Shown here in pieces: positions 1,807 through 60,371 of a DNA stretch of 64,000 nt. The notes beneath the pieces were generated by a model that saw only the letters and a list, made by a program, of their open reading frames with translations, was not told the origin of the DNA and did not search any database. Origin of the DNA: Eledone cirrhosa. Its lineage: Eukaryota. The position numbers were made by a program, and so were the translations under genes. How positions within the stretch are numbered: position 1 is the stretch's first letter; each line of letters opens with the position of its first letter. Location of the stretch: the NCBI GenBank assembly GCA_964016885.1, contig OZ024750.1, positions 13,516,001 through 13,580,000 on the forward strand. The letters are read 5' to 3'.

Positions 1807-4442
1807 CCACATTGATATTTATAATCCACCACCCCTTTGATATTTATAATAATCAACGTCACTACATTCCTTTTATTTCTATGTCCCTTTTAGTCTGCCT
1901 ATAATATGTTTCGCTGAGGAGTTTCAAGAAATATGTTCTTTGCTGTCTTTATAAACGACATAAACTGCATTAATATGCATTCCCCAATATTCTGATCAAC
2001 TGAGTCATTTGCACTTTAACAGATGATCAAAGTATGCTTGAGTAGATTCTACTTATGATGTCCAATAAGACTGAAAAACTGTTTATAGTTGTTCGCCTGC
2101 CTGTAAACAAAGATCAAATGTGTACAATAACCATATCAATTAATTTAGCAAAATCTTTCATTTTTACAATTATCCCCACTTTTGTTTGAGAGTCCTTAAC
2201 AATTACTGCTTGTTTTAGGTTTTCATAAGACGCAAATTTCAATTGATGGAGAGTTTTTTGCATATATGAAATTAGTAGACTCACTAGTAAACTTCTACCA
2301 GCTAGAAATAGCAAACAAATCTACCTCAAATCACACCATCCTTTGATCATAGTTCACCTGGAGTTAAGCAACTCAGTTCTACATAAGAGAATGTTTCCAC
2401 TTAATTGTTTACATTAGATCCTTGATTGATTTGGTTAATATGAGGTTGTCAAATCAAGATCAATGGGTTGTCATTGCAATCTGCACCTGTTTTGTCAATT
2501 TCTGACGTCTTTCATCTTGGAAGAAATGTGTTTGTCTGTAAGGTATCATTAAATGGTTAGGAGTAAAATTTAAAATACAGTTGTCTGGGAAGATCACTAA
2601 GAAGGTAATCGTTTCTTTTTCGTATTTGTTTACAAAGAGTTTTACGAAGCTTCTGACTGAATAAAAACTTGCAGTTAAACAGAAAATACTTGACAAAATA
2701 TTTCAAATTAGAACACTTGTTGTTTTCTTTTTTATAAGAACATGGTGTGCCTCATAGCAGAGAGGAAATGAGTTAGCTGGAACAATCACCATTTAAATTA
2801 AATATTTACATTATAAAATGAAATTTTATTGTGTTTGTTTTAGTCATGATGGCTAAGGTTATGCTGGAGCATCGTCTAAGTTAGGAAAAATATAAAGGAA
2901 AATTTGGTACATCACATTGCTGCTTTCAATATTTCTATGCAATAATAGTGATTTCTGATTTAGGCACTAGACCAGCAATTTAGTAGAAGGGAAAGTTATT
3001 TAACTGGTACTTAATTTTATCAAGTTCAGGAGGATGAAAGGCATAATAACAATTTCTTTATTAACCACTTGGGCCATGAAGGGCATAACCTGCTAAGAAA
3101 ATGTCCATAGGGGCCCTAGTCATTCAGTTGGTAATTTTTTACAATAACATATGCTCGGGTTTGGGTTTGCTTACCCCACAAGACTCCTGATCTGTTCACC
3201 AGTTGTTGTTACTTGTGGATGTCTTCAGCTTCAGGAAGTATTTAAGATAACTAAACATTCCTCAGCTACAACATGTACTTTATTATGTTCAGCACTAATA
3301 TGGTATTATTCTGAAACTAGCCTTCAAGTGTGGTGCTATGTTAGTCAGACATCTACAAAACCAAAATACTTCAGCGATCATTATTCCCCTGTTCCACATT
3401 GTATCTGTTACCTCATATAAATATATCCATGTCCTCTGCCTCTAGCAGAGACTGATTTTGAGATCCTGTCATACCATAAAGACCATATTGACCATTTCCC
3501 TGGCTGCAATAACTGGCAATATGACTTACTTGGTTACATAAGATGTAATATATTACCTTGGGCTTTGATTCTTTGTAATCCCTAACTGTGTGCAAACATT
3601 GGTACCTGAAATACTATTTCTTAAACGTCTGTCTCTCCTTGGTCTTTATCATACACTGGTTGCTACCTCATTTTATAAGACTCTCCTGTTGGTACTGCCA
3701 CACATTTTTGCATGTTGTTTAGCATCAACAGCATAGCATTAACCTCTAATTTGCCTTTTATCATTGTTTTGATATATGATCATGGAAGCCAGTCACAAAT
3801 GCCAACTTCACCATTCTCTCCATTGCTTCTCTAGAAAGCCTGGGTAACTAAGATAGTTTCCTAATTTCATTCAGAAAAACATCCGCCTACTCTCCTGTCC
3901 ATTTCACAGTTCATAGCTATGCACTAATAATAATAATAATGAAATTATTGTGTACAATACTCTTTCTGTGAACACTTCTTTTAATTGACTTTCGAATTTA
4001 CCTGCATCTTCTTGGCCAAACACATCCATTTCTAGATGCAGATGACCCTATCCTTTTGCCAGAAAATGGCTTGAGGACATTGGTACTAACTCTTATTTTT
4101 GTCAACATATCAATTGCAAGAAATATATATATATTTATACACACACACACACACATGTACATATATACACATATAGATGTATATATAGGAAAACAAGTTA
4201 TTTTAAATATAAACAATAAATATATATTGAACAGAGGACTCTATACATGGGTTGTGTTGAATATTATTACAATATATATATATATTAATACCTAATATAT
4301 ATATATATATATATAAATATGTGCATGTTTTTTATGCATATATGTATAAATATATATGTGTATGTACACATTTCTCATACAAGTATTAATTAATATCATA
4401 TATTAGAATTGTTGCTCTGAAATAGCTATATATATATATGAA

Positions 4443-4566
4443 TGTATATATAGTGTATTTTGCAATACACTGTATGCTTAATAAAAAGCATTTTGAAGAC
4501 CTTATGCTATTGTTTTAGAGTAGTGACAGGCTCACTTACTTTAATTTCAGCAAACAGGGGAGATAA

Positions 4567-4603
<37 letters not shown>

Positions 4604-4729
4604 CTTTATCTCCCCTGTTTGCTGAAATTAAAGTAAGTGAGTCTGTCACTACTCTAAAACAATAGCATAAGGTCTTCAAAATGCTTTTTATTAAGCATAC
4701 AGTGTATTGCAAAATACACTATATATACA
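4443..4729. repeat. Inverted repeat, 131-bp arms, poly-T loop
   Basis: 4443-4573 is the reverse complement of 4599-4729 with one difference. Confidence 0.95.
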
Positions 4730-5759
4730 ATATCATATATGTTTAACTCTTAATACTCTGAAAAGATTCAGCAGAAAATAACTAAAAACTAGTTTGTTAA
4801 TTAAAATCTTTCTAGTATCTTCACTAGTGGACAAATGATTGTAAAAAAATGCAGTAAACTTAAGTATAGACCATCATTTTTAACCCATTCATCACCAAGT
4901 ACTTTCTGATGCAGTACTTTGTATTTTAAGTAATTAATGAAGGAGTTGGGAAGTATTTGCTTGATTTATAGTTTTATTAAGATGACATTTGTAATGTAAA
5001 CAAGTGTTCTTATATAAAATTATGTTGGAATTTATGTACAAACAATTTAAGATGGTGGTTTTGTTTTGCAGAGCTAGACGGTTTTGTTGAGTTGGTATCA
5101 AAAGAATTAATGTAGTGCAATCATAGAGTTATTTTGTACTTTTCAACAATGTCTTGCTAATGTAGTCTCATGAGTTAAGACTTGCAATAAATGTTTGATA
5201 CTAAAGCATAAGCTTATAATATTATTTAGATTTGGTCCCATGTTTTACATTTTATAGCTGTTGATGCAGCAATTGACAGCATGTATGGGTCTGTTGGTGT
5301 GTGTATAAAAGAAAATATCTATACTTGATTGGATTATGTCATTCAAAAGTTCTTTTCTGAGGTTTCTGACAGAATGTTGACATCCATTGTGTTTTCATCT
5401 TTAGTTATTTACATTTGCTGTAAAATTAAAAATTACTATTATGATATTAAAAATTAAAAAAATTAAAATTTTTTAATCAAATATATATATATACAGACAG
5501 GTTTTGTTTTTTGTCCTACAAGGTGTCTAGAATCCCCCTCCTCACCAATCAAACTTGGTGGGATTGCTGGTTTAGTCGCCGACATTAAAGTTTGAAAAGA
5601 AGACAAATATAGATAAATCTTCATATATATATATATATAACTTATGAATGTAATCACTTTATGCTATATGAACATACAGATGGTAAAATATACCTTTTCA
5701 ATATTCTTGCAGTGTGATACTTTAGCCACTTATCTTTTCACAATTGTTATTGATTATAT

Positions 5760-6194: not shown

Positions 6195-7105
6195 CATCAT
6201 CATCATCATCACCGTTTTACGTCCGTTCTTCCACGCTAGCATGGGTTAGACGGGTTGTCCTGTTGTGGGCAGTGTCTGGTCGGCTGACCATGCCTTGCTC
6301 ATACAGGAACTGATTTGGCTTGATTTCTACAGCTGGATGCCCTTCCTAACACCAACCTCATTTACAGTGAGTGCTGGGTGCTTTTTCGTGGCGCCTACAT
6401 GTCCACTTTACAGTGTGGGCTGGGTGCTTTTTTGCCGTGGCACCTCCACGACCACCTTGCAGTGGGAGGGTGTGGGGGCATATTGTTTATATGCTTCAGC
6501 TTGTACTCATGGGAGGTCGGGTACTCTGTATTACTGCGTGTCGCCAGAGGTCACGGTCGTGTGCCATCGCCTTTGAGAGGTGTAATTGGGTAAGGTCGGC
6601 TTTTATCACCTCATTCCAGGTCATCTTGGGTCTCCCCACTCCGCGGTTTCTATCAACTTCTAGTGCTCTGCACCTTTTTATGCAACTGTCATCCTTCATA
6701 TGCATCACATGTCCATACCAACGCATCCGCCTCTCCTGCACACAGCATTTGATTCCGCTGATGCTCAGTCTCTCTCTCAATTCATTTATGCATTGTCGTT
6801 CGCGTATATTACTATTACACATCCATCGGAGCATGCAGGCTTCGTTTCTCTCTAATCTACGTAAGTCTTCCACCTTCAGCGCCCAGGTCTCAGTACCATG
6901 TAACATTGCTGTTCGGATACACACATCATACAGTCTGCCTTTCATTCTGAGGGAGAAGCCTTTTGCAGCTAGCAGTGGTAGTAGTTCCCTGAACTTCTTC
7001 CATCCCGTTCTTACCCTAGTTATTGTACTTTCTGAACACCCATCTCCGCTGCTAATTCGGTCACCTAGGTAGCAGAAGCTGTCTACTGTCTCTACAGAGC
7101 CCTCC
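6195..7105 (-). mobile_element. 3' fragment of the same RTE LINE family
   Basis: ORF 6496-6945 is homologous to 18090-18518; (TGA)n tail at 6195-6210. Confidence 0.9.
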
Positions 7106-7753
7106 CAGAGATTGGTGGTACTTGTTTCCTGTGGCTGTTTGCAAGCTTATGAAATTAAATCATGGAGATCCAGACTCAAAATCTGGACAGTAATAAAGAG
7201 TTGAAAATATTTTAAGCTTATATAGCCAGCACAGAAAAGGGTATTAAAAAAAAAAGCAATTGCGTTGCAAGTATGTAATAAATTATCATAGCTGCATCTG
7301 AGGAAGAGTCTTAACATCAAACCCTTTTTAGTAATGGTTGAATCTGTCTTATGTAAGACATGGGCACTCACAAGGATGCTTGGAAATCAATGTATGGATG
7401 GTTGTTAACACCACTCCCAATGTTTAATTAAACTATATTAAAACTAATTAGCATAGATAATGAACATTAAAAGATGATAAAATGTCACTAAAACTAATGT
7501 CAGTATTTTGAAATGATATCAATGGCTGTAGAATAATGTAAACAATAAAGAGATGGTTGAAAATATTTGGTGCTATTTTCTTAAATCTCTTTTATATTTT
7601 GAGTTCAATTTCTGTACTTCATCTTTTTAGACTTAGAAAAATAATTAACAGTCATGTACTGGGATCAATTTAATAAACTATACCCTTTCCGTACAAATCT
7701 CTAGTTTTGTTTTAAAGTTAGAAATTATAATTTTGAAATCGCATTTGCTTTAA

Positions 7754-8000: not shown

Positions 8001-10645
8001 TTACTGACATACACTCACAAGGTTTAATGAGGCAAACTGAATAGTAAATCTAAAGACAAAAAGAAAAGCAGAATTAGTTGAGAATTGCTTCGAAAATCTT
8101 TCATACGTACCAAAAGAAAGATTGTCTGCAGCTTTACTGGAAATATTCAACATCCTCAATTCTGGATGATTTCTTAGAGTAGTTTTATTCATTGACAATA
8201 TTTTCTTGAATTTCTGAACTGCTGATTTCAATTTATTCAAGAAAGTAGAATGTTTATTATACTCTGTTCTAATGTTTCTGTTCACAGAATTATTGCCTCC
8301 ATTCTCATTAGTCTTATTAGAAACTGTTACAGTGGTTTGGCTATTGTAGTAATTAATTTCCTTGGTATCAGAATAGTTGGAAAATTCAGCTGGATTCCTG
8401 GTTATATCTTGAAAATCTTTTTTTTCGTCACTTTCTGTGTTCAGTGTAACTACATTCACACAACTTTTTTTCACAGGTGTATCATTGAGAGATTGTTGAT
8501 CATCTAACTCATTCCTTATATTTTCATTGATTGTAGTCTCTTCTAATACTTTGTCTCTAGTGCTACTGTCTGTTAAACCTTTCTTAGAACTTTCTGCTTC
8601 TGTAAAGGTTAGAACTGGGGGTTTTACTGTAGGAATATTAAATATTTGGTTTATATTCTTTATATCTTGGTCCATTGCAACTTTTCGCACTTGGTCCATA
8701 TTTCTGAAGTTAGGGTCATTTTTTAGGTGGATTATATTGGTGACGTTGGGACAACCTTCTAGGTTTGTCATCAAAACATTTTGTCCTTGGTCTACATTGA
8801 TGACGCCGGGACAATCTTCTAGATTTGTCATTGAAACATTTTCTCCTTGGTCTCTATTGGTAGAGTTGAGGTAATCGGCTTCGTTTGTCATCAAAGTATT
8901 TTCTCCTTGGTCTCTATTGGTAGAGTTGAGGTAATCATCTTTGTTTGTCATCAAAGTATTTTCTCCTTGGTCTCTATTGGTGGAGTTGAGGTAATCGTCT
9001 TCGTTTGTCATCAAAGTATTTTCTCCTTTGTCTCTATTGGTGGAGTTGAGGTAATTGTCTTCGTTTGTCATCAAAGTATTTTCTCCTTGGTCTCTATTGG
9101 TGGAGTTGAGGTAATCGTCTTCGTTTGTCATCAAAGTATTTTGTTCTTTGTCTCTATTGGTGGAGTTGAGGTAATCGTCTTCTTTTGTCATCAAAGTATT
9201 TTGTCCTTGGTCTCTATTGGTGGAGTTGAGGTAATCGTCTTCGTTTGTCATCAAAGTATTTTCTCCTTTGTCTCTATTGGTGGAGTTGAGGTAATCGTCT
9301 TCGTTTCTCATCAAAGTATTTTGTCCTTGGTCTCTATTGGTGGAGTTGAGGTAATCGTCTTCGTTTCTCATCAAAGTATTTTGTCCTTGGTCTCTATTGG
9401 TGGAGTTGAGGTAATCGTCTTCGTTTCTCATCAAAGTATTTTGTCCTTTGTCTCTATTGGTGGAGTTGAGGTAATCGTCTTCTTTTGTCCTAAAAGTATT
9501 TTGTCCTTTGTCTCTATTGGTGGAGTTGGGATAATCGTCTTCATTTCTCATCAAAGTATTTTGTCCTTTGTCTCTATTGGTGGAGTTGAGGTAATCGTCT
9601 TTGTTTGTCATCAAAGTATTTTGTCCTTTGTCTCTATTGGTGGAGTTGAGGTAATCGTCTTCGTTTCTCATCAAAGTATTTTGTCCTTTGTCTCTATTGG
9701 TGGAGTTGAGGTAATCGTCTTCGTTTCTCATCAAAGTATTTTGTCCTTTGTCTCTATTGGTGGAGTTGAGGTAATCGTCTTCGTTTCTCATCAAAGTATT
9801 TTGTCCTTTGTCTCTATTGGTGGAGTTGAGGTAATTTTCTGTGTTTGTCATGCGAACATTTTGTCCTTTGTCTCCATTGTTGGGGTTAAGGTAATTTTCT
9901 GTGTTTGTCATGCGAACATTTTGTCCTTTGTTGGTTTTAAGGTAATTTTTTGTGTTTTTCGCTGAAATATTTTCTTTCTTTGTATTGGTGGAGTTAGGTT
10001 TGTTTTCTATATTCTCTCTATACGCTATATTGAATTTTCTTGTTACTTTCCCTCCATCTGTATTTTTAATGGTTATTTGTGTGAAAATTTCAAAATTGTT
10101 GGGTAACACATCATTTCTTTCTATTAAATATTTCTCCAGTGAGGCATTTTCCTCGTCATCTATTTTACTTTTAATTTCATTTTCACTAAAACCTAAAGTA
10201 ACATTACTTGACAGATCAATAGGTGCTTGTTTTTCAAGCTTTATGCTCATATTAAAAAATTGTGGTACTTTTTTTATAATGTTTAGCAAAGAGTTCCCTG
10301 ATATATTTTCATCTGAATCATTTATAATTTCTACGTTGTTGCCATTAGAAATATTACTTTCTGGAGCTTTGTCTTTAGTCTCGTCCGTAGTATATGGAGT
10401 TTTGCGCACATGTCTCACATTTTTATAATGAATATGAAAACTATAATTTCTGTTGTTACTTGCAACTCCATTTGAGTACAAACCAGTGTTATTACCTACA
10501 TCCTCAATTTGTTCCTCAGAATTTTTATGTAGTTGAATATCATTTCCATGTAATAATGCTAACTTCAAAGAGTTGTTCAATGGCTCTTTTATTGATTGTT
10601 TAATTGGAATAATTATTACTTTATTAAAAGTAAGATTTTCTTCAT
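8001..10645 (-). CDS. Large repeat-containing exon of the secreted protein
   Basis: ttttcag acceptor at 10646-10648 in frame with ORF 8001..10580; open across more than 1.4 kb of non-repetitive AT-rich sequence as well as the repeat. The C-terminus is uncertain because of a possible 61-nt intron at 8050-8110. Confidence 0.82.
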
Positions 10646-13463
10646 CTGAAAATTAAAATTATGAAATTTAAAATTGTAAGCAATAATAGTAATCATATGT
10701 TAATTATTCTAGTATTTAAAGATGTTGACACAATTATTTGGGCAACAATAATAGTATTTGATCTTCTTTGTGAATCATTTGTTGAAATATAACATTTATA
10801 ATATCAAATTGTGAATTTCTGTGTGGCAGACAATGGATTCTTACCACTATACCAAGAAATATATGTTTAACTCAAATTATTAAAACACAAATCATTCAAC
10901 ATGTTAAAATATCTACATTAAATTTGATAAAAACAACAACAAAAACAAAACAAAACAAAACATTTAGCTGTTTTCGTCTTTAAAATAGATTAAAGAGGGC
11001 AAAGTGTATGAGATGTGACTAACAAGTGTGTTATTTAATGGCTGTACCGCTGAATACAGATGATCTGCAGTGGCTGGAGAGAATTGAATTAACTCTTTTG
11101 ATACCAACCCACCCACCCCAAAACTGTCTCATCATCCATTTAGAAAGTTGCTATTTATATTAAAATCTTCCAGCGTTCACATGTAGTGTGCACTGCGCAG
11201 GCTTTCTTGAGGACAAGAGTCTCAGTCTTTGTAGCACTGATTTTCATTTCAGTCATGCAGTCCTTGACATAAAACCTATCAGGTGAATGTCTGAGATTAC
11301 CTTCTGACAAGTTAAGTAATACCAAGTCATCTGCAAATTCCAGCCGACTAATCCTACACCTGCCAGTCATAAAGCCCCTACGTCTCTGAATTGGGAGATC
11401 ACAGCTCCGATATTAAAAGTATGTGGTTAGAATGTCTCAGAAAAGAATCACTGGACAGAATTTACGGGCAACACCAACTGACAGGAGACCCGGAGGTAGA
11501 CCCTGAGAAAGATGGTTGGATAACATCCAAGAAGAAGAAAATGTATATATGTACGTATGTATGAACGTATGTATCTATGAAACTTAGCGTGGAATGGTGA
11601 ATAATTTTGAGGACAGATGCATAGAGCGCGAGGAGATCAAACAGAATGTGCATAATCAATGCCTTGGTGTATCTCTTGTATCTCTTGAAACGATCGGTGT
11701 CTCCATTGAATTGGTGTGCCCAGAGTGTGGAAAGGTGTGCTTGAGCAAATCTGGTCTCAAGAGCCACAGTCGCAGTCATGTTCAGAGAGAACCAGTGAAT
11801 TATGATCTCCTTGGTATTGCAAAATGTAATGAATGTGCCAAAGAATGTCGATCTGTAGCAGGACTGAAACGGCATGTGAAGGTTCACAGGTAACCTGATG
11901 CCAGGGAGATCCATAGTTGTCATCAATGTGCAAAGGGGTGCAAGTCTCTAGCAGGCTTGAAAACCCATATCCGAACATCACACATTTGACAAGAAATTGC
12001 AATATTCTTAGAATGAGTTTGCATCCATCATGTATGTATGTAGGAAATGTAAGCACAATAAAATTGACAAATAGTTTGTTAACTTACTGTGCCGAGTTCA
12101 ACTCTGCTAGTAGCAGCCAGAAGTGTGACTAAAAGTCAGTAGAACAGAGTACACATTGAGGGATACATCTAGTTATGGTCATGTGATGCATATGGATGAT
12201 GGTCATTGGATGAAGAAATGCTAAAAGTCCTAAGTGGTGGGAAGCTGTAGTAGAGGAAGACTGAGGAAAACCTGGACAGAAGGGGCGAGAGTAGATTTCA
12301 AAACACTGAATGTAACAGAGAAGAAGATGAAGGTAAACAACAAATAAAAAGAAGATATGCTGGAAAAGATGTGTCTAACCAATGCAGATGATGGTGTGGT
12401 GATGATGATTAACATGATTATATGACAATATTTAGATAGATTAGGAAAGGATTTAGTTCCTAGATAATTCAAATGGTTTGTTCTCATTGAAATTGTAAAC
12501 CAGCTAAAAACTGTTGTCTTAGAAACAAAAATACACCAATGCCTACTTACAATTATCACTGCACATGAGATAAGAGATGTTTCCATCAGCAGAAATACAT
12601 TGACAGTTGTAAGAAATTCCATTGATAGATAATGTCTTATTTTGTTGGTATAATACAATACCGTGTCTGTAGTTACAATCTGAAACGAAAATTGATTTCA
12701 GTTTAGAAACATATACTTAAATTAATGCACCTTAACATGAAGACTTAGTGGTTAGGATGTTTGGCTCACAATCATAAGGTTGAGGTTGATTTCCAGACTG
12801 GGGCAGTGTGTTGAGCAAGACACTTTATTTCATGTTGCTCTAGTGCACTCAGCTGGCAAAAATGAGTTGTACCTGTAATTCAGGGAGCCAGCCTTGTTAT
12901 ACATTATTTCATGGTGAATTTCCTTGGGAACTACGCTAAGGGTGCACATGCCTGTAGAATGCTCAGGCATTTAGACGAAAGAATCGCTGGACAGATATTA
13001 TTGGCAAAACCAACTGGCTGGAGACCTGCAAGCAAGATGGTTGGATAACATCCATGAGCCCGGCTGGTTTTGCTTGGCGATCCAGTCAGATCAATTGGGA
13101 GCAGTTACTTCTGACAGGACTCACTGGAAGGCCTGCTTGAGGACTCTAGCCCTACAACCCTCCAAAGAATAAGTACTAGTAGTAGTAGCATCAGCAGCAG
13201 TCTTGCAATATAGTACTGGAAAAATATGTAATACGGATCTTAATAGTAGTAAGAAGTTCAGTTTAATGCATTTATTATACTGAGGAAAACAGAAAAAAGA
13301 AAGATATTTTAAAATGATATTTTGAAATCAAAGATGTAAAATGTTTCTTTGAAATTCAGCACAGAAATAAAGTTTTCATTATATATTCAGAATTTTACTT
13401 ACTTTTGTAAGCGGAGCATATCATCAACAACAGGATAAAAATAATTTGTGAAAGTCTTTCCAT
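8001..13463 (-). CDS. Uncharacterised secreted Asn/Asp-rich repeat glycoprotein, 3 coding exons (13403-13463, 12551-12679, 8001-10645), about 944 aa
   Basis: GT-AG, phase-1 compatible exons. Signal peptide MERLSQIIFILLLMICSA, then a 4-Cys module, then an 880-codon open exon with 60-bp tandem repeats. Confidence 0.8.
8741..9945 (-). repeat. Coding 60-bp tandem repeat, about 21 units (consensus NEDDYLNSTNRDKGQNTLMT)
   Basis: Consecutive 60-nt lines from 8821 to 9841 are near-identical. Confidence 0.97.
11165..12410. mobile_element. Nested LINE debris in an intron: RT fragment (-, FADDLVLL), RTE 3' pieces (+) and a C2H2-finger-bearing RTE-like C-terminus (11585-11990 +)
   Basis: ORF 11155-11370 has an RT motif; ORF 11594-11893 has CPECGK..H..H and CNECAK..H..H. 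Confidence 0.6.
12551..12679 (-). CDS. Exon encoding a 4-cysteine module of the secreted protein
   Basis: gtttcag acceptor, gtaagt donor, phase 1-1; CNYRHGIVLYQQNKTLSINGISYNCQCISADGNISYLMCSDN. Confidence 0.75.
13403..13463 (-). CDS. Signal-peptide exon of the secreted protein
   Basis: aacag|G ATG; MERLSQIIFILLLMICSAYK + A|gtaagt; hydrophobic core ending in a C-S-A cleavage motif. Confidence 0.75.
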
Positions 13464-15232
13464 CCTGTTCTTAATAATGAAAAAAAAATGACAAATAAAA
13501 ATAGCCATTAAAGAAAAATAAAACACATTACAATACAAACATACCCACAGGATAGGAGAGGTGGGTACTTCAGAACATTCTAGGTGGGCAAGCTTTCACA
13601 GGCTTTGGTGCCCTAGATAGGAGAGGTGGGTACTTCAGAACATTTTAGATGGGCAAGCCTTCACAAGTAATGTATTTTTTATAAACCCTGTTTTCTAAAT
13701 CTGAGACTGCACCATTGAAAAGTAAGAGGGTAGTGCCATTCAGTGCTCCACCCTGCTTCTGTTTTGGTGACAGACATCATTTAACCCTTTAGCATTTAAA
13801 CTGGCCGTATCCAGCCAGAATTCTCTCACATCTTTCTGTTCAAACTGGCTGTAACCAGCTACTCATATTTATGTTAAGGTATTGTTCTCAAAATAACTAA
13901 TATCAAAATCTCATAGATTTGATATTATGTGAGATAATTATGTGAAATAAAGTGTTTATGGTGAAAATACAATAGTAAATATAGAATAATGTAAATGCTA
14001 AAGTAACTCTCTCTCTCTCTAAAATAAACCCACTGTTTTCTACAATTTCCACAATGCTTCAAGCAAACTACAACTTTACTGAGTATTTTTCTTTTAAAAT
14101 TTATATTTTTGTCAATAAAAAAACATGAAAAACTCTTACTTTATGTTGTTTCTTATTCCTTGGTCTTCTGAATACTTCCCAGTTTTACATCCAGATTCTT
14201 GTTCTTTTATTATTGTTGTAGGTGACTTTTGCTCAACAACTGCTTAGATCTATTTTGTTATTGAAAATACCCCAAACAATTTCTGATTCTCTTTCTTATG
14301 TCAATGAATATATGAGAGTATACCATAACTCCTCATGTAACATATTGTCACTCCAATTAAAGTGTCATGTTTGAGTTATCAAACAAAAGAAAACCCAGCC
14401 TGAATTTTCATTGGTTGAAGTTTTCTCAGCTTGCATTGCCAAAACCAACTTTAAAGCTGGAAATCTTTTCAATATTCATATTATTCAAAGTAGGAGTTTA
14501 AAGATTATAAAATTTTGAAGCAGAGTTTACAGTTTAAATATCTTTCCTCCCACTCCTTTTAAAAAAAAATATACATACCTACATAGAATTCATTTTAAAG
14601 ATTTGAAATCTACATGATATCTTTATTCCAAAAAGAATATAAACCAATAAAATAACCTTAACCCATTAGCATTACTCTAGATATACTGTTGTAGTTTCAC
14701 TGTAATAGCTTTACCTCACATAATATCGAATCTATGAGATTTTGATGTTATTTATTTTGAGAACAATACCTTAACATCAATATAAGTGGCTAGTTATGGT
14801 TTGTTTGAACAGAATGAGAGAAAATTTTGGCTGAATATGGCCGGTTTAAATATTAAGAGTTAAATTATAAACCATTTCAAAATATAAGTTGAAATTTATG
14901 ATGATAATTATAAAGATGATGAAACTAAACAGGAAATCAACTTTTCAAAATAGACTTTATTTTTTCTAATAAATATATATATTTTCAAATATACAAAGCT
15001 AATGTTCCTTAAAAAAAAACCCCCAAAAACAAAAGCAAAACAAGCAAACTCTTCCCCTTCAGTTGGGCAGTAAATCTCAGTAAACATCTTGCAGACAAGA
15101 TGGCAAAAATGTTGCCTAAAATTGTTGCTGTCATTGGCCTTAGGCAATAGTTACTGACATTCACACATGCTGAAGGTCAACTTATTATTTATTCCTTTTT
15201 AAGGGATACTTTCTAACAACTGCAATAATGAA

Positions 15233-16620
15233 CACATCCACAGTCATCCACATATATATATACATATACATCCACATATATATATATACATCCACATATA
15301 TATATATACATCCACATATATACATATACATCCACATATATACATATACATCCACATATATATATATACATCCACATATATACATATACATCCACATATA
15401 TATACATATACATCCACATATATATACATATACATCCACATATATATATACATATACATCCACATATATACATATACATCCACATATATATATATACATA
15501 TACATTCACATATATATATATACATATACATTCACATATATACATATACATCCACATATATATATACATATACATTCACATATATACATATACATCCACA
15601 TATATACACATACATTCACATATATACACATACATTCACATATATACATATACATCCACATATATACATATACATCCACATATATATATATATATACATA
15701 TACATTCACATATATACATATACATTCACATATATACATATACATTCACATATATACATATACATTCACATATATACATATACATTCACATATATACATA
15801 TACATTCACATATATACATATACATTCACATATATACATATACATCCACATATATACACATACATCCACATATATATACATATACATCCACATATATATA
15901 TACATATACATTCACATATATACATATACATTCACATATATACATATACATTCACATATATATATATACATATACATCCACATATATATATACATATACA
16001 TTCACATATATATATACATATACATTCACATATATATATACATATACATTCACATATATACATATACATTCACATATATACATATACATTCACATATATA
16101 CATATACATCCACATATATATATACATATACATTCACATATATACATATACATTCACATATATACATATACATTCACATATATACATATACATTCACATA
16201 TATACATATACATTCACATATATACATATACATTCACATATATATATATACATATACATCCACATATATATATACATATACATTCACATATATACATATA
16301 CATTCACATATATACATATACATTCACATATATACATATACATTCACATATATACATATACATCTACATATATATATATACATATACATTCACATATATA
16401 CATATACATCCACATATATATATATACATATACATTCACATATATACATATACATTCACATATATACACATACATTCACATATATACACATACATTCACA
16501 TATATACACATACATTCACATATATACACATACATCCACATATATATACATATACATCCACATATATATACATATACATTCACATATATACATCCACATA
16601 TATATATATACATATACATA
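15233..16620. repeat. (TA)n-derived minisatellite (catatatacatatacat[tc]ca), continuing at 18997-19550 after the LINE
   Basis: Units of about 20 bp with a variable number of TA. Confidence 0.95.
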
Positions 16621-18996
16621 AGAAAGTTCAAGCATGTTCTACAACGTGAGGACCAAAAACGTGAGGTGTTCAGGATTGCTAGGCAATGTGTCAAGGAAAA
16701 CCGTGATATTGTCGGGGAGAAGTGTGTACTTAACGATGATGGCATACTTGCCATCACCGACGCTGATAAGAAGGTAGCTTGGAAGTGTCACTACGAAAGG
16801 CTTCTAAATGAGGAGAATAAATGGGAGAAAGACAGTCTCCCCCACATCGACCCAATAGAGGGACCAGCAGTGTTAGTCGAGGGTAGTACAATAAGTAAGG
16901 CAATCAAAGATATGAAGACGGGTAAGGCGGCTGGGCCTTCGGAAATAGTTGCTGAGATGCTGAAGGCATCTGGTTCGGTGGGACACACCATGGTCACTTG
17001 GATAGTTAACCAAGTCGTACAGAATGGGGTTGTTCCGAAGGACTGGCGTAGCAGCATCATCGTTAACTGCTATAAGGGAAAAGGAGATGCCCTAGATAGG
17101 AGTAACTATAGAGGCATTAAATTAATCGACCAGGTCATGAAGGTCATGGAAAAAGTAATAGCGCAACTAATCAGAGAGAGAATTGATCTAGATGAAATGC
17201 AGTTCGGGTTTGTGTCAGGCAAAAGTACTACAGACGCTCTTTTCATTGTACGACAACTACAGGAGAAGTACCTAGCTAAAAGTAAACCCCTATACTTAGC
17301 TTTTGTCGACTTGGAGAAAGCCTTCGACAGAGTCCCCCGTTCCATTATCTGGTGGGCTCTTAGAAAACTAGGTGTTGACGAATGGCTTGTGAGAGCTATA
17401 CAAGCCATGTATAAAGAAACAGTCAGTAAGGTTAGAATTAACAACGAATATAGTGAAGAGTTTAGCGTAAAAGTTGGTGTCCATCAGGGCTCTGTCCTTA
17501 GCCCCCTACTATTTATTATTGCCCTTCAGGCTATAACAGAGGAGTTCAAGACCGGCTGCCCATGGGAACTCCTATACGCAGATGATCTAACGCTCATAGC
17601 TGAATCAATGACCGAACTAGAGAAGAAATTCCAAACATGGAAGCACGGCCTAGAATCAAAAGGCCTTAAAATTAACCTGGCTAAGACTAAAGTTCTAGTT
17701 TGTAGGAAAGAAAATAAGGCGGCGGTCCCTTCCGGGAAATGGCCATGCTCAGTGTGTAGGAAAGGCGTAGGTAGAAACTCCATTTTATGTCCCCAATGCA
17801 AAGTATGGGTGCATAAAAGATGTAGTGGGATCACAGGTAAGCTAACTAAGAACATAGATTTTACATGTGGCCGGTGCTCTGGTGCAATAAGTAGCAGCAA
17901 GTGCCCACTAAATACTAGCTTTTTCAATTGCGCAGAGGGTTCTATAGAAATAGTGGACAGCTTCCGTTACCTGGGTGACAAAATCAGCAGTGGGGGAGGG
18001 TGCTCTGAAAGTACAGTAGCTAGAGTCAGAACTGGATGGAAAAAGTTCAGAGAGCTTATACCACTATTAGCCGCTAGAGGGTTCTCCCTAAAAATGAAAG
18101 GCAGGTTATACGATGCCTGCATACGAACAGCAATGCTGCATGGGCATTGTGTGCAGAGGATATACGCAGACTAGAGAGGAACGAAGCTTGCATGCTCCGC
18201 TGGATGTGCAATAGTAATATACGTGAACGGCTAAGCATAAACGAACTAAGGAAAAAATTAGAAATAAGAGGGATCAGATGTTGTTTACTTGAGAGAAGGC
18301 TACGTTGGTACGGTCACGTGATGCGCATGAAAGACGACAGCTGTATAACAAAGTGCAGGACAATAAAGATAGACGGTAGCCACGGAGTAGGCAGACCCAG
18401 AAAAACCTGGGACGAGCTGATAAATTCCGACCTCACACGCTTACACCTCTCCAAGACAATGTCACTGGTCCGAGACCTTTGGCGGTACTCAGTAATAGAG
18501 AAGACCCGCCTTACCTAAATACAAAGTAAAAACCTACTACAGTCAGTAGGCATCACCCCCCGTCCCACCACCTCCACCCCATCCACACCGCCCCTTTCAA
18601 TGTAAAGTTATGTTGGTCCCACAACATCCAGGCCGAAACAAATGAGATCGTGTAGGTGTCACGACAAAAAAACACACGCTGTAAATGTGGCCATGTAGGC
18701 AACACGGTAAAAACCTCCCAGCCCCACACTGTAAATGTGGTTGGTGTTAGGAAGGGCATCCAGCTGTAGAAAACCCGCCAGACAGTCCACGCTGTAATGT
18801 GGCCGTGTAGGCAACACGGTAAAAACCTCCCAGCCCCACACTGTAAATGTGGTTGGTGTTAGGAAGGGCATCCAGCTGTAGAAAACCCGCCAGACAGTCC
18901 TATGCGAGCAAGACAACCACTCTTGCCTCAAGTGGGAAAACCCCCGTCCAAACCCATGCAAGCATGGAACACGGACGCTAAACCTGATGATGATGA
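16621..18996 (+). mobile_element. 5'-truncated RTE-clade LINE: RT domain plus PHD-like finger, frameshift near 18148, 3'UTR and (TGA)n tail
   Basis: ORF 16666-18174 has [19 protein letters not shown] and YADD. ORF 18147-18518 continues the C-terminus (RRLRWYGHV..GRPRKTW). No endonuclease domain; tgatgatgatgat tail. Confidence 0.93.
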
Positions 18997-19197
18997 TATA
19001 TACATATACATCCACATATATATATATATATACATTCACATATATATATATACATTCACATATATATATATACATTCACATATATATATATACATTCACA
19101 TATATATATACATTCACATATATATATATACATTCACATATATATATATACATTCACATATATATATATACATTCACATATATATATATACATTCAC

Positions 19198-19228
<31 letters not shown>

Positions 19229-19550
19229 CATTCACATATATATATATACATATATATACATTCACATATATACATATACATATATATACATTCACATATA
19301 TACATATACATTCACATATATACATATACATTCACATATATACACATACATTCACATATATACACATATACATCCACATATATACATATACATTCACATA
19401 TATACACATACATCCACATATATACATATACATCCACATATATATATACACAGTCATTCACATATATACACATCCACAGTCATTCACATATATATACATC
19501 CACAGTCATTCACATATATATACATCTACATAGATACACATATATACACA
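18997..19550. repeat. Right half of the LINE-interrupted minisatellite
   Basis: Same unit as 15233-16620. Confidence 0.93.
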
Positions 19551-24141: not shown

Positions 24142-24342
24142 TTAAGATAGATGTGGAAATTCCTTAGATATTTCACATGACATACCCAATAATTTATCTC
24201 TGTTTGCTTAACTCACTCTCTCTCTCTCTCTTTCACTCTCTTGCCCTCTCTGTTTTATTTCTCTTTTCCTATCCATATCTGCTTGTGTTACCAGTGAAAG
24301 ACTTTTGTTAGAAGTGCAGAAAGTCAGTGGAGAAAGCTAATA

Positions 24343-24577
24343 TTATAGATAATCAGATATAAATCTATGGCGTAACAAATCTTCAGCAGTAGGGCGTTCT
24401 CGAGAATTTTTCCTGAAACATTTTCGAATACAGTCTTTGGCTATGTCAGAGACATGAAAAGGAAGTTCATATTTTGGATGTTCTGATGTAGCAATTTTAT
24501 AAATAGCAGCCATAGATTCGAGGTCAGGCCAGGGCGGTTTCATTGTAAACATTTCCACTATTGTACAACCAAGACTC
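24343..24577 (-). CDS. MAP3K2: MAP3K2/3 last coding exon (kinase subdomains IX-XI, stop)
   Basis: Poly-T cag acceptor; (W)[16 protein letters not shown]...[17 protein letters not shown]; TAA at 24343-24345. Confidence 0.95.
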
Positions 24578-27500
24578 CTGAAAAAAAAAAGAGAAAAATA
24601 TATGAAACTTAAATATTTAAGTGAAAAATAAACAAACTAAAATAAAATGGTGTAGAGCATTGCCACAAGCTTGTAAAGGTGAACAGTTGATGGAAGGGAC
24701 TTTACTGCAGACTGATCATTGAACTGGTTGGCAGTGAAGGAACTTTCAGTTAGGCAGCTAACAAGACCTGGACTTTAAAGGCAGATCATTCCTCCTTACA
24801 CTTTGTCATACAATAAACAACAGTTGAACAAAACACCATTTGTTGTTATTTTAAATATAGCTTAACTAAAGCTATAATGGAAAGAAAAAGAATACCACCA
24901 AATAGTAAAAAAAAATTATGTAAAGATTTGATCTTTAACAAATCTTTAAAATTTGCAGTGTAGAGAGGAAATGGTTAATTTTTGTTATTGCATATATTTT
25001 CATTTTATATACTATATATACTCGAGTAATGGTTGATCTCATGTAAAAGTCAACCCCCTATTTTTTGCCAAAAAATCTGGAATTTTTCATAGACCTTGTA
25101 TAAAACTCGACCCTAGTATTTCACAGATAACAGGTCAACATTTGTGGGTCAAGGTATCATCCTGTATGTAGAAATAAGTGTTACAAAATTGTCATGAATT
25201 TAAGGCAAATTTATATTATTGTAAATACATGTCTGAAACTAAAAAATTACCCAAATGTGTGTCTACCTTCCTGTAGCCTGGCCTATAGCTGGAATATTTG
25301 GTGCTTTTAGTAAAACACTATATAATAGTGAGCACTATACATCTGTTGATGGGTGCTACATCAACCATTCTGCTACTGATATGGTACTTTGGATTATAAC
25401 TTGAATTTCAAACCCCTCCAAGTAGTATCCATGTAATAATCAACCTCATAAATTTAACCTTAGAAACTGCTCTAAGTTCAAATCCTGCTGAGGTTAGCTT
25501 TGCCTTTCATTCTTATGGGATCATTAAAATAAAGTACCAGTAAAGTACTAGTAATGCACTGGGGTCAATTTAATCGACTTTCTCCTCCCCTAAAATTATT
25601 GGCTTTGTGCCTGAATCAGAAACCATTATTAAAAACAGCAATTCTGGAACTTACCATATGTCAGCTTTGCGGCAGTAACCCTCACCATTAATAACCTCCG
25701 GTGCCATCCAATGAGGTGTTCCAATTACTGTTTTCATTCCTGATATGCTACAAATAGTCTGCAATCGTTTGGAAGCTCCAAAATCCCCAAGCTTAACATT
25801 ACCTTGGACATTCTTTAAGATATTAGCACCTGTAAAAAAAATAATCATTTGAATGTAAAGATAAATGAGTTTGGTTATTACTCATTTAAAATAATTTGAG
25901 TGGGGTTTATAACCCCTAGAGCAGTGCTTTTCAATCTATTTCAACACATTTTTGTTTCATTGAAAATGGTATAATAGCAGTAAGCATGTATGGTCATTTT
26001 CTCTGCTAAAGCAGGGTTTGCTCTTGTGGGCTCCATGAAAACCTTCATGTTCATGATGGAGTCGTTTTTGAAGAAATATTTTATGACTGGATGCCCTTCC
26101 TCTATGCATGGTCAAAATCAAACTAGGTAAGCAATAATTAATTTGAATTAGCAAATGTGAAAACTCAGAGAAATAAATATTGTAGCTTTGAGCAGTTTCA
26201 CAACACACCTATATATAACTTAGTAGCATACTAAAGTGTTGTAACACAAGTTAGGATACCCAGCATTAGAAAGAACACATCGATTAAACAAACTATTTAT
26301 AACTTAGTAATGAAATAATAACTTTAGCAAATCCCTCAAAATCCTTCATTATTCAATTGAAATAGAATATATCTTCTTCTTGAGAGGGTTATGAGAACAG
26401 TCCCCAAACACTCTTTCCAGTGGGTCCTGTCAGAAGCAACCATTTCCAACTGATCCAGCTGGATCCCTAAGTGAGACCAGCAGAGCTCATGGATGTTATC
26501 CAACTATCTTGCTCAGGGTCTACCCTCAGTTGGTTTTGCCCGTAAAATCTGTCCAGCGATTCTTTCCTGAGACATTCTAACCACATGCCTATAGTATCAG
26601 AGCTGTGATCTCTCAATTTGGAGAAGTAGTGGCTCTACTTGGAGTGACTTTCTGATTTCCAAGCTACACACTCTATTGAGTAATGTTACTCCAAAGACTA
26701 TTTGGAAGAACCTCATTTCAGCCACTTGTATTCGCGATCATATTTTTTTGGTCATTAGAAAAAATAAAAATAGAAAAAAGGTGTTAGTACTTACATTTTA
26801 TATCTCTATGTACAATAACATTTTTGTGTAGAAATGCTAATCCTTCAAGAACTTGTCGGGTGTATTTCCGGGCAAGATTTTCATTTAATGGACCATAATT
26901 TTGTAATTGCTGCCGTATAGAACCCTGAGATGATCGGGATGAAAAATTAAATTAAATTAAATTATTTCATATTAATTTGTTGCTTTTTAAAAAAAAAAAA
27001 AGAAATGTCAAATTTTGTTATTGATTATGGTGCTGATGATGATAAAGAAAGAAGTAACATAGATGATGGAACAATGGCAGCATGGTTAAGACACCGAACT
27101 ACAGATGGTCATAAGTTATTCAGATTTTATTACTGTCATTGTATTGGGTTTGGACAAAATTCTGGCTCTTTATGCTCAGAGTTCAAATCATGAAAAAATC
27201 ATGTTTGATTTAGCATTTACATTACTCTATATTTATGTTTGATTTAGTATTTACATTACTCTATATTTATGTTTAATTTAGCATTTACATTACTCTATAT
27301 TTACTATTGTATTTTCATGGTAAATCTTACATAATATCGAATCTACAAGATCATGATATTATTTATTATTTATTTTGAGAACAATACCTTAACATAAATG
27401 TGAGCAGCAGGTTACAGCCAATTTGAACAGAAAGAGGTGAGAGAATCTGGCTGGACATGGCCAGTTTAAATGCTAAAAGGTTAAAGCAATTAAGAAGCCA

Positions 27501-30500
27501 CATCAAATCCATGTAGACCAAACAAACTTATCAGTGCTATGCAAGTCAAAAGACCAGTGTAAAGATCATCTTGGTTGGTAGAGGCAAGATAAGCAGGGTA
27601 TCTTTCAATAGCTATATAAACCTGAAACACCACATAACAATGTTGATGCTTCTGATGATGATGATCACAATATAAAAAATATATATATATAAATACAAAT
27701 TCTTGCATGAAATGTCAAACTGTTTCTTACCCCAGGCATATATTCCATGAATATTGATAGTACTTTCCCTTGAATACAACCAAAATACTGAACAATTCGT
27801 TCGTGATGAAAATTCCTAAGAAGCTGGATTTCATTTTCTAAAGCCCGGACTTCCTATAAAAAATATAACAAAGAGAATAACTTTTACAGTATATTTAAGA
27901 AATTGTATACACTACTACTACTACTATAGAAAGGGACAGTGATATGATTGAGTATTCCCATCATTAAATGAATAAATACTAAAAGTAAATACAAGAATAA
28001 ATACTAAAATCCCCTAAAAGTAAATACAAAAATAAATACTAAAAACCCCTAAAAGTAAAATAAATATTAACAGCCCCTAAAAAGTAAAATAAATACTAAC
28101 AACCCCTAAAAAGTAAAAAAAAAAAAATCAATAAGCAACAAACAAACAAAACGCCTGAAATGAATGCAATTGAAATTACCTTGGAAACTTCTGCATTGTC
28201 TGTTGATGTTTGAACTTGTTTGACTGCTAATTCTCGGCCAGAGTCTTCGTCATAACACAGATACACTTCACCAAAGGCACCAGGACCAAGTAACCGACCT
28301 TTCTTCCAATTGGTTGGGGCTCGGGGAGCTTCAAGTAGAAGTGAAAATCATATTCAGAAAACATGACTTACATATTATATATGCCAACATGGATAATAGA
28401 TGCAAAAATGATGATTATATATATAATAAATACATACATATTCTAAACCCATGCTAGCGTGGAAGATAGACGTTAAACGATGATGATGATATACGAGGGT
28501 GGGCTGAAAAGTTAATAAGCTGACTCTGATGGAGTGATGCTAGAGCTGTGAAATCTTGCATGCATTAATTTCAACTCTCCTTATTAATAACTGCATTGTT
28601 TATTTCAAGGGACTATGTTGAAAAATAAACCTCATTTGGTCATTCCATGAGAGTATCTTGGTCAGCCTATGAACTGTTGAGCTGACCCTCGCATATAGCC
28701 CATCCCTTCAATCTTTCTAATTTCCCATTCTTTCTTCTGATGAAAGACTAGCATCCAAAACGTTAAGACCCTCTTCCTGCTATTTCAAGCGTTAACCTAA
28801 TATATTCCTTCCATATACTGTACTGATTGTGTTGTGTTGTGAGAAAATAGGACAAACCCATATCATTACAGTCTTAAGTCCAACACCCTAACCACTAGAC
28901 CACACCTAGAAGTGGTCATAAATATGATGATGGCAATGATGATGATGGAGATGATGATGATGGTGATGGTGATGATAATAGTGATGATGGAGATGGTGAT
29001 GGAGATGATGGTGATGAAGATGATGGTGATGATGATGATAGTGATGGTGATGGCGATGATGATGAAAAAGAGAAAATAAGGGAAATGAAAAGAAGAACTT
29101 ACATTTAGAATAATGACAATCAGAGAAGCCAAAACTAGGACTATCCATATCACTGTTCCGCTTCATCAATAGCCTGCCTTCAGGTGAGTCCAGATCAGGA
29201 TCAGGTGGTAAACCACTACTACTACTGCTTGTACTGCGCGTGCTACTGAGGGTCCCTTCACTGCCACGAGTTAGCAATGCCGGGACTGACCTAGAGCAAA
29301 GTTCTGGCCGGCGGTTATTAGAGCGAGGAAACGTTCGATGACCTGAATAATTTATTGAATAGATTTATTAAATCTTAATTCCCTGTACAACATGGAAATA
29401 ACATTAGCAAGGTATCTAGAAAGGTACAAAGACAGCACTATGATTGCAACACATTAAAAATTGAAGTCATCTCTCTCATACTACAAATGTTTACAACAAT
29501 CCATCTTTCCAATAGTAAAGACATTATAGGCATTTGAACTGACAAGCCCATACAAATCTAGTATGCACCACATTCCTTTCCATCACCCCTCCCATATACC
29601 TTCCACATTGTAATCACCCCACCTATGTCCTAACGCCCCAACCGTAGGTCTACCTCCCCAATTTCCCTATACATCTCTCCCAACCACCAAGTCCACAATC
29701 CACACTATAAAGTGGTCATCTTGGTGCCATGACAATAAGCGCCCAGTCCACACTGTAAAGTGGTCATGCAGGTGTTATGACAAAAAGCACCCAGTCCACA
29801 CTGTAAAGTGGTCATGTAGGTGTCACGACAAAAAGCACCCAGTCCACATGGTAAAGTGGTCATGTAGGTGTCACAACAAAAAGCACCCAGTTCACATGGT
29901 AAAGCGGTCATGTAGGTGTCACGACAAAAAGCACCCAGTCCACATGGTAAAGTGGTCATGTAGGTTTCACAACAAAAAGCACCCAGTCCACATGGTAAAG
30001 CGGTCATGTAGGTGTCACAACAAAAAGCACCCAGTCCACATGGTAAAGCGGTCATGTAGGTGTCATAACAAAAAGCACCCAGCCCACTCTGTAAAGCGGT
30101 TGTGTAGGTGTCGCAACAAAAAGCACCCAGCCCACTCTGTTAAGTAGTTATGTAGGTGTCACAACAAAAAGCACCTAGTCTACACTGTAAATGTTAATTA
30201 CTCTAGAAATTTCTCACACAAGAATCTGTAGATTTAATGAAAAACAAACTTACGTTCAATATCTGCCATGTGTGTACCTGTTTCATAACCACGTGGAAAA
30301 GTACCAAATGCATGCATTTTGCTTCCTGAAAGTATTAAAAAGTTAGTGTAAAGAGTGGATTACAGTTGAAGAGTAAAGACTTGATGAGATTAAAAAGTAA
30401 AGAAAATTTCAAGAATGTAGTAAGTTTTGTTATCTTACCAGGAATCATATCTTCCTTATTGCTATCTGAAAGAATACTTCGTCTTGAGTCTCGCCGAGCT

Positions 30501-59967: not shown

Positions 59968-60371
59968 ATTGCTGTGCATTTCTGTGTGAAGAAGCAAATA
60001 GAGTAGGTTAAAACAAACTGGGTCACACAGCTGAAAACTATTCAGGAAAAACAAACCAACAAATGAACAATAATGAGGCAGTGAGGGCGATGTGAGGAAG
60101 GGGGGAATATAGAAAGAGTGGAGATAGGATGAGGGGGTGTAGAAGTAGGGAGAGGAGTAGTGGGGGGGGGATTCATTACAAGTAATTATGGTTTATAAAT
60201 GGGTCAATGGTTTGTTAGTGTTTTTTTTTGTATTTGTTATTTATATTTATTCACTAAGAGGGGGAGGGGGCAATTCCATCAATAATAATGCAGGCGCAGT
60301 CAATAGCATTGAACATATTTCATTTTTTTAGTCCAGGATTGTTATGCCATATATATATATATATATATTAT

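What the first reader, a model, noticed from the sequence alone, without database searches (positions are those of the whole stretch)
8001..13463. Unrecognised secreted protein: signal peptide, 4-Cys module and about 21 x 20-aa Asn/Asp glyco-repeat
Seen: two small upstream exons missing from the ORF track splice in phase onto the 859-aa ORF and supply a signal peptide (MERLSQIIFILLLMICSA) and a Cys module. Seventeen repeat units each contain an N-S-T sequon, and most have E-D-D-Y just before it. Established: NxT is the N-glycosylation sequon, and Tyr after acidic residues is the usual tyrosylprotein sulfotransferase context. Inference: a regularly spaced, polyanionic, N-glycan bottle-brush extracellular protein (mucus, egg coat, adhesive, saliva or matrix), probably lineage-specific. 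I do not recognise the family.
Basis: partly seen in the sequence, partly recalled or inferred. Interest (0 to 1): 0.75.

Follow-up and report, generated by a model that had tools for sequence, protein, structure and literature searches.

The report
Octopus secreted glycoprotein, young repeat expansion
This is a real but unnamed octopus gene for a predicted secreted protein packed with sugar-attachment sites; in this species one 20-amino-acid stretch has been copied about twenty times, which likely lengthens a mucus-like sugar brush, an ordinary kind of change whose tissue and role are still untested.

Summary
The gene is real. Its single-copy orthologs are already predicted but uncharacterised in Octopus sinensis (XP_036371174.1), O. 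vulgaris and O. bimaculoides (LOC106875936). They have the same signal peptide and 4-Cys module joined at the same places. Their X2 isoforms skip exactly the Cys exon. Its 3' end is likely wrong: the big exon likely ends at 8111 and splices to 5417-5401, giving 913 aa. The orthologs carry the 20-aa unit once, so the 20-copy array is likely a recent expansion in this lineage. Its copies show no detectable selection (4 synonymous, 11 non-synonymous alleles, p=0.5). The conserved trait is dense N-glycosylation: half of all Asn in the orthologs sit in sequons, twice the shuffle level. The E-D-D-Y motif is absent from the orthologs, so tyrosine sulfation is not the family's mechanism. The Cys module resembles fibronectin type I only weakly. 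No RNA or tissue evidence was found. Verdict: an N-glycan analogue of a lineage-specific mucin repeat gain; modest interest. An unchecked scan note reports a similar sequon-repeat block in another gene of this genome.

The parts
14140..14169 (-). 3' end of a likely non-coding 5' exon (its 5' boundary was not determined); donor GTAAGA follows 14140; it likely splices to the acceptor at 13469
   Evidence: The best local match in that frame to the N-terminal extension of the O. vulgaris model P0041 ends exactly at this donor. The match alone is weak (23 of 300 shuffles reach it). An in-frame stop lies upstream, so ATG 13463 is the first start.
13403..13463 (-). Coding exon 1: predicted signal peptide (20 codons + 1 nt, phase 1)
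   Evidence: only hydrophobic stretch, KD19 1.63; 75% identical to the Octopus orthologs. SignalP was not run.
12551..12679 (-). Coding exon 2: 43-aa four-Cys module, symmetric phase 1-1 cassette exon
   Evidence: 56% identical to Octopus and 100% between O. vulgaris and O. bimaculoides; skipped in the X2 isoforms of two species; predicted three-stranded beta sheet at low confidence, pLDDT 67-68.
8111..10645 (-). Coding exon 3: Asn/Thr/Ser-rich region with many sequons, containing the repeat array
   Evidence: about 38% identical to the orthologs outside the array.
8730..9929 (-). 20 x 60-bp in-frame array (aa 303-702); 17 units with Y-x-N-S-T
   Evidence: the 16 core units are 94.5% identical on average; the orthologs have the unit once.
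8001..8110 (-). ORF tail, likely intron read-through rather than protein
   Evidence: Phase-1 GT donor after 8111. A protein called on a Logan contig (P0043) runs through the same point in the same way, whereas the three annotated Octopus models end differently.
5401..5417 (-). Likely terminal coding exon (five residues and stop); AATAAA at 4978
   Evidence: AG acceptor with a pyrimidine-rich tract; the phase-1 join gives a 913-aa protein whose end aligns with the orthologs' C-terminus. Inferred; no RNA reads.

Best explanation
A single-copy octopod gene encodes a predicted secreted, likely unfolded glycoprotein that likely works as an N-glycan brush in a mucus, gel or coat, with an optional four-cysteine module as a likely anchor. 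Shown: the exon structure, orthology to uncharacterised Octopus models, cassette splicing of the Cys exon in those models, about 2-fold sequon enrichment, and no membrane segment. Inferred: the signal peptide sends it into the ER, where 35-40 N-glycans (occupancy untested) would extend and hydrate the chain. The disulfide-bonded module would bind a matrix or surface partner, so skipping it would give a free form. In this lineage a 60-bp exonic segment that already held one N-S-T was likely amplified about 20-fold by slippage or unequal crossing-over. This almost doubles the chain (913 vs 472-496 aa) and makes it more acidic, while the total sequon count stays near 39.
For: Orthologs in three Octopus species plus one unnamed Logan protein. 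The O. bimaculoides protein hits only this locus in the own genome, 3 matches of 40 candidates scored. Sequons in the orthologs are 40, 38, 34 and 30 against shuffle means of 18.6, 17.5, 15.0 and 14.0; 0 of 2000 shuffles reached any of them; the reversed motif occurs only 13-16 times; 44-51% of Asn are in sequons. Outside the array the window protein keeps 20 sequons against 11.3 expected, 6 of 2000 shuffles; 15 of the 21 sequons in a repeat-collapsed alignment sit at the same columns as in O. vulgaris. The maximum 19-residue hydropathy after the signal is 0.59. The Cys module is the most conserved mature part. Identity between array units falls with distance, from 0.956 to about 0.91, as expected for tandem amplification. 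Repeat gain in secreted proteins is a documented route to mucin function (PMC9417175, abstract, passages and section 12 read).
Against: No expression, tissue or glycoproteomic evidence exists here, so the mucus/gel/coat role rests on composition alone. The array shows no detectable purifying selection: 4 synonymous vs 11 non-synonymous alleles, p=0.5. The absence of sequon-destroying alleles has P=0.36 by chance. In the C-terminal 211 aa of the window protein sequons are not enriched: 6 vs 5.4, 929 of 2000 shuffles. The reversed-motif control is close to the forward count in the window protein outside the array, 16 vs 20. There is no outgroup, so the direction of sequon loss and repeat gain is inferred. 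The anchor role of the Cys module is untested and its fold matches are not significant.
Confidence: 0.55

Rival explanations
1. It is a fast-evolving reproductive protein (spermatophore, seminal fluid, egg coat or oviducal cement), and the repeat gain reflects species-specific gamete-coat evolution.
For: Single copy, secreted, only about 41% identical between this species and Octopus, with a homogenised repeat array; this pattern is typical of reproductive proteins (recalled, not tested). The octopus oviducal gland secretes mucoproteins and upregulates glycosylation genes including STT3A (PMC8976471 passages).
Against: No tissue data. O. vulgaris and O. bimaculoides are 89% identical, which is not extreme. 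No sign of positive selection in the array.
Confidence: 0.2
2. The array is a neutral coding minisatellite tolerated in a disordered glycoprotein and adds no function; the gene itself may be under relaxed constraint in this lineage.
For: The synonymous/non-synonymous allele ratio is neutral. The window holds many non-coding minisatellites of period 34-72. About half of the orthologs' sequons are missing outside the array. Two of the three coding differences seen in the DNA runs change an amino acid. This rival concerns the array only and is compatible with the best explanation of the gene.
Against: The frame is intact over 1.2 kb with 0% indels, while the two other sense frames carry 39 and 21 stops. 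The splice sites, signal peptide and all four Cys are kept.
Confidence: 0.4
3. The array is a sulfotyrosine-plus-N-glycan polyanion that binds calcium or a receptor, for example in a biomineral matrix or saliva.
For: 12 of the 17 repeat tyrosines have three acidic residues within five positions and 14 have Asp-Asp directly before. Acidic residues at -1 and -3 favour sulfation (PMC6748591 passages). No non-synonymous allele at the Tyr codon.
Against: The motif is absent from all four orthologs. Invariance of Tyr plus N-S-T has P of about 0.1 by chance. Every such Tyr lies two residues from a sequon Asn; that a nearby N-glycan disfavours sulfation is recalled from the older consensus rules and was not found in the passages read.
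Confidence: 0.12

Closest known systems
Uncharacterised Octopus models: O. sinensis XP_036371174.1 / XP_036371178.1, O. vulgaris CAI9718097.1 / CAI9718096.1, O. bimaculoides LOC106875936 (XP_014779740.1 / XP_014779741.1)
   Same: Signal peptide, four-Cys cassette exon, colinear Asn/Thr/Ser-rich body, C-terminus, and a total of 34-40 sequons.
   Different: They have the 20-aa unit once, are 472-496 aa long, are near neutral (net -7 to -9), lack acid-acid-Tyr motifs and have twice the sequon density. Their database names (DDB_G0286901-like, dentin sialophosphoprotein-like) look like low-complexity labels (my inference).
Lineage-specific mucins formed by 'mucinization' (Pajic et al. 2022, PMC9417175)
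   Same: An existing secreted protein keeps its signal peptide and gains a lineage-specific exonic tandem repeat that carries glycosylation sites.
   Different: There the repeats are Thr/Ser-rich O-glycan domains on proline-rich precursors. Here the unit carries an N-glycan sequon, is poor in Pro (4 of 400) and has 17% Ser+Thr, and the precursor was already glycan-dense.
Fibronectin type I / VWC N-terminal subdomain (FnI-like modules)
   Same: Four Cys in a C-x23-C-x-C-x11-C pattern, a predicted three-stranded sheet and a symmetric phase-1 exon. FnI chains recur among the weak fold hits: 6 of 7 listed rows, and rank 3.
   Different: No match is significant: Foldseek E 1.8 or worse, VIA Z 2.1-2.7. 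There is no Pfam or PDB sequence hit. The Trp and the Cys spacing recalled for FnI are not matched exactly.

Membership tests
Octopod LOC106875936 orthogroup | Colinear similarity over the signal peptide, Cys module and both flanks of the array | tested here: met
   41-42% identity over 456-480 aligned columns with the array collapsed; BLASTP E 4e-18 and 2e-14
Octopod LOC106875936 orthogroup | Only locus hit in the own genome | tested here: met
   P0044 gives 3 matches, all at this locus; the exon 2 and exon 3 searches were also single
Octopod LOC106875936 orthogroup | Conserved gene neighbours | not testable with these tools
   No octopus genomes other than G000 were available; here it lies between a MAP3K2-like kinase and a metallophosphoesterase gene
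Mucin (PTS-repeat, O-glycosylated) | Pro/Thr/Ser-rich tandem repeats | tested here: not met
   The array has 4 Pro in 400 aa and Ser+Thr 16.8%; whole-protein PTS is 18% (orthologs 26-27%)
Mucin (PTS-repeat, O-glycosylated) | Secreted, with a signal peptide | tested here: inconclusive
   Conserved N-terminal hydrophobic stretch; SignalP was not available
Mucin (PTS-repeat, O-glycosylated) | Dense glycosylation shown biochemically; expression in mucous glands | not testable with these tools
   No RNA or glycoproteomic data
Fibronectin type I module | Profile match to the Pfam fn1 or VWC families | tested here: not met
   0 families at E up to 10 for both the window and the Octopus module
Fibronectin type I module | FnI fold with 1-3 and 2-4 disulfides | tested here: inconclusive
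   Models of pLDDT 67-68; FnI rows at Z 2.1-2.7, not above background; disulfide pairing could not be inspected
TPST substrate (sulfotyrosine protein) | Acidic residues at -1 and nearby | tested here: met
   14 of 17 have Asp-Asp-Tyr; 12 of 17 have three acidic residues within 5 positions
TPST substrate (sulfotyrosine protein) | Sulfation observed, or motif conserved | tested here: inconclusive
   The motif is absent from 4 of 4 orthologs; mass spectrometry was not possible

The most novel reading that the evidence does not exclude
This is 'mucinization' by N-glycans with a conserved glycan budget. The lineage lost about half of the scattered sequons that Octopus has (20 outside the array vs 34-40 in total) and regained the same total (39) through a regular 20-aa sequon repeat. 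On this reading selection acts on the number of N-glycans per molecule, and the repeat adds evenly spaced sulfotyrosines next to each glycan, giving a designed polyanionic brush with a splice-switchable FnI-like anchor.
Probability: 0.12. Interest if true: 0.6.

Novelty: new variant of a known kind. Interest (0 to 1): 0.3.

Why it matters
It gives a corrected gene model and a clean before/after pair: a one-unit ortholog in Octopus and a 20-unit version here. With it one can test whether exonic repeat gain builds N-glycan brushes in the way it builds O-glycan mucins in mammals. It also points to an unnamed octopod secreted glycoprotein, with one sequon per 12-14 residues in the orthologs, and a small cassette Cys domain with no family. 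Without tissue or biochemical data it remains one of many lineage-restricted secreted repeat proteins.

Tried and rejected
No RNA holder was listed for the stretch. The three runs X1-X3 behave as genomic DNA of one sample, covering introns and exons alike, so they say nothing on splicing. A second laying over the 3' part gave no result, so the last exon has no read support. Homolog searches with the window's exon 3 in the 90% library found nothing at E 0.01, both at near lengths and shorter. The ortholog came only from the full HMMER scan, where 1 of 35 hits (P0003) matched non-repeat sequence at the C-terminal side; of the others, the four sequences read and the six looked up were unrelated proteins, mostly with repeats. 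The ESM Atlas gave no usable hit. PDB sequence searches gave only chance hits, E 0.37 or worse. Fold searches gave no significant match. The own-genome search with four repeat units found no paralog: outside the locus E 1e-4 or worse, and the best of these contain stops. No paper names the accessions (one term was a guessed identifier and carries no weight). Topic searches listed no description of this family (listings only). Supplement searches for accessions or short peptides found no row for this protein in: the O. vulgaris skin mucus proteome (PMC10138644, file cut when stored), the ink proteome (PMC10142993, file cut), the salivary gland proteome (PMC7693380), the O. maya oviducal gland study (PMC8976471), the P. 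digueti glands study (PMC12607849, only 393 characters held) and the brain atlas (PMC9712504, one file unreadable). PMC12691039 had no readable supplement. These blanks are not evidence of absence, and unseen supplements may hold the tissue. Rejected: a neuropeptide precursor (no dibasic or Gly-Lys-Arg sites in the units); a membrane or GPI-anchored protein (no hydrophobic segment); the gene being the tail of the upstream kinase (that gene has its own stop at about 24341); the opposite-strand 376-aa ORF at 8835-9965 (an antisense shadow of the repeat). No complex prediction was run, because no partner is known.
Full report
Observation. On the minus strand, exons 13463-13403 and 12679-12551 join exon 3 at 10645 through GT/AG junctions, all in phase 1. 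The result is an open frame that begins with a hydrophobic leader and a module with Cys at 22, 46, 48 and 60. A 60-bp array of 20 units runs from 9929 to 8730 (TRF 19.5 copies, 93% matches, no indels). Of the 20 units, 17 carry N-S-T, each with Tyr two residues before; 12 have E-D-D-Y and 14 have D-D-Y. The array is 18.8% acidic and 10.7% basic, net -32 over 400 aa.

Orthologs. Word-based searches with exon 3 found nothing. The full HMMER scan gave 35 hits, one of which, P0003, matched outside the array. It is Octopus sinensis XP_036371174.1 and clusters with O. vulgaris CAI9718097.1. Searching with the O. vulgaris protein gave 4 proteins among 7992 candidates: O. vulgaris, O. sinensis, O. bimaculoides LOC106875936 and one unnamed Logan protein. 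Only lengths of 272-868 aa were searched, so more distant or differently sized relatives are not excluded. The O. bimaculoides protein matches only this locus in the own genome. With the array collapsed, identity is 41-42% overall, 75% in the signal peptide, 56% in the Cys module and 38-39% elsewhere; O. vulgaris and O. bimaculoides are 89% identical, 100% in the Cys module. The window is therefore from an octopod outside this Octopus group (inference).

Gene model. The Octopus models join leader, Cys module and body at the same places as predicted here. The X2 isoforms of O. sinensis and O. bimaculoides lack exactly the Cys exon, so it is a cassette; skipping it in the window also keeps the frame (870 aa). 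That RefSeq isoforms usually rest on RNA-seq is my recollection. A phase-1 donor follows 8111, and a join to the acceptor at 5417 gives five more residues and a stop, aligning with the end of the three Octopus models; the total is 913 aa. The Logan protein, which starts inside exon 3 and was probably called on unspliced DNA, runs through the same donor much as the window ORF does. A likely non-coding exon ends at 14140. The best match in that frame to the N-terminal extension of O. vulgaris model P0041 stops exactly at a GTAAGA donor; the match is weak alone (23 of 300 shuffles), and an in-frame stop precedes it. No RNA run was listed, and the three runs laid are genomic. The neighbours are a MAP3K2-like kinase upstream and a metallophosphoesterase gene downstream that I recognise from recall as DBR1.

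What is conserved. The family trait is dense N-glycosylation potential. The orthologs have 40, 38, 34 and 30 sequons against shuffle means of 18.6, 17.5, 15.0 and 14.0, with 0 of 2000 shuffles reaching any of them. The reversed motif occurs only 13-16 times, and about half of all Asn lie in sequons. The window protein has 39 in total: 20 outside the array (11.3 expected, 6 of 2000) and 19 inside. Against this, its last 211 residues show no enrichment (6 vs 5.4) and its reversed-motif count outside the array is 16. There is no second hydrophobic segment and no Pfam family.

The array. The orthologs hold the unit once, as a segment with N-S-T followed by G-Q-G-Q-N. The 16 core copies are 94.5% identical on average, with identity falling with distance and variants sorted along the array. 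This fits recent tandem amplification, or continued homogenisation; there is no outgroup to decide. The distinct alleles in the core are 4 synonymous and 11 non-synonymous, against 18% synonymous sites (p=0.5). No allele destroys a sequon, but that has P=0.36 by chance, and invariance of Tyr plus N-S-T has P=0.098. Selection on the array is thus not shown. The acid-acid-Tyr motif occurs 14 times here and 0 times in four orthologs. Acidic residues at -1 and -3 favour sulfation (PMC6748591, passages). Each Tyr, however, is two residues from a sequon Asn. That a nearby N-glycan disfavours sulfation is recalled; the passages read did not state it.

The Cys module. Two AlphaFold models (1 and 2 sequences; pLDDT 68 and 67) give a three-stranded sheet. 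Fibronectin type I chains recur among the weak hits: Foldseek E 1.8 at best; VIA Z 2.7, rmsd 2.2 over 35 residues for 2cg6 among 48,161 chains; 6 of 7 listed rows in the second look. None is above background, and the sequence searches gave only chance hits. It is FnI-like as a lead, not as a membership.

How it likely works. The protein would be secreted, heavily N-glycosylated and extended, serving as a hydrated brush in a mucus, gel or coat. The optional disulfide module would tie it to a partner, and splicing would give anchored and free forms. The array lengthens and acidifies the brush in this lineage. Confidence is 0.55: gene and secretion are well supported, tissue and role are not. Rivals are a reproductive coat protein (0.2), a neutral coding minisatellite (0.4, about the array only and compatible with the main reading) and a sulfotyrosine polyanion (0.12).

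Comparison and novelty. The closest process is mucinization, in which secreted proteins gain O-glycosylated Thr/Ser repeats in single lineages (PMC9417175; abstract, passages and section 12 read). This case works like it but is not a mucin by the PTS criterion, uses N-glycan sequons, and starts from an already glycan-dense precursor. No paper in the library names the accessions. The supplement searches found no row for the protein, though several files were cut or unreadable. An unchecked note of this scan (e1-9545403) describes about 95 tandem N-Y-S sequons inside a giant mucin elsewhere in this genome, which suggests such blocks recur. Verdict: a real gene, a new variant of a known kind, interest 0.3.

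Noticed in passing
window 24341-30530, minus strand: Multi-exon MAP3K2/MEKK2-like kinase gene ending about 10 kb upstream of the finding; one exon matches human MAP3K2 at E 5.8e-23.
   Followed up: partly
L013 429-1145, minus strand (about 9 kb left of window base 1): Metallophosphoesterase gene whose N-terminus I recognise from recall as lariat debranching enzyme DBR1.
   Followed up: partly
window 4421-4751: Foldback/MITE-like element: 153-nt inverted arms, 94% complementary, around a 25-nt A/T run; 162 matches in the genome as a lower bound, many 97-99% identical. It lies about 0.6 kb past the predicted stop and holds possible poly(A) signals.
   Followed up: partly
window 15232-18518 (+) and 6496-7146 (-): RTE-type LINE reverse-transcriptase remnants (recognised from recall); the longer one is flanked on both sides by long TATACA-type satellite tracts (15256-16619, 19000-19550).
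   Followed up: no
window 8111-8243 region (aa 864-881 of the model): A strongly amphipathic basic helix near the C-terminus (hydrophobic moment 0.58), aligned to a more hydrophobic Leu-rich segment in the orthologs; it could mediate oligomerisation.
   Followed up: no
window 60365-61945: 488-bp tandem unit in 3.2 copies at 99% identity.
   Followed up: no
window 13431, 10369, 10293: Three single-letter differences in coding exons in the DNA runs: one silent, K156R and N181K.
   Followed up: yes
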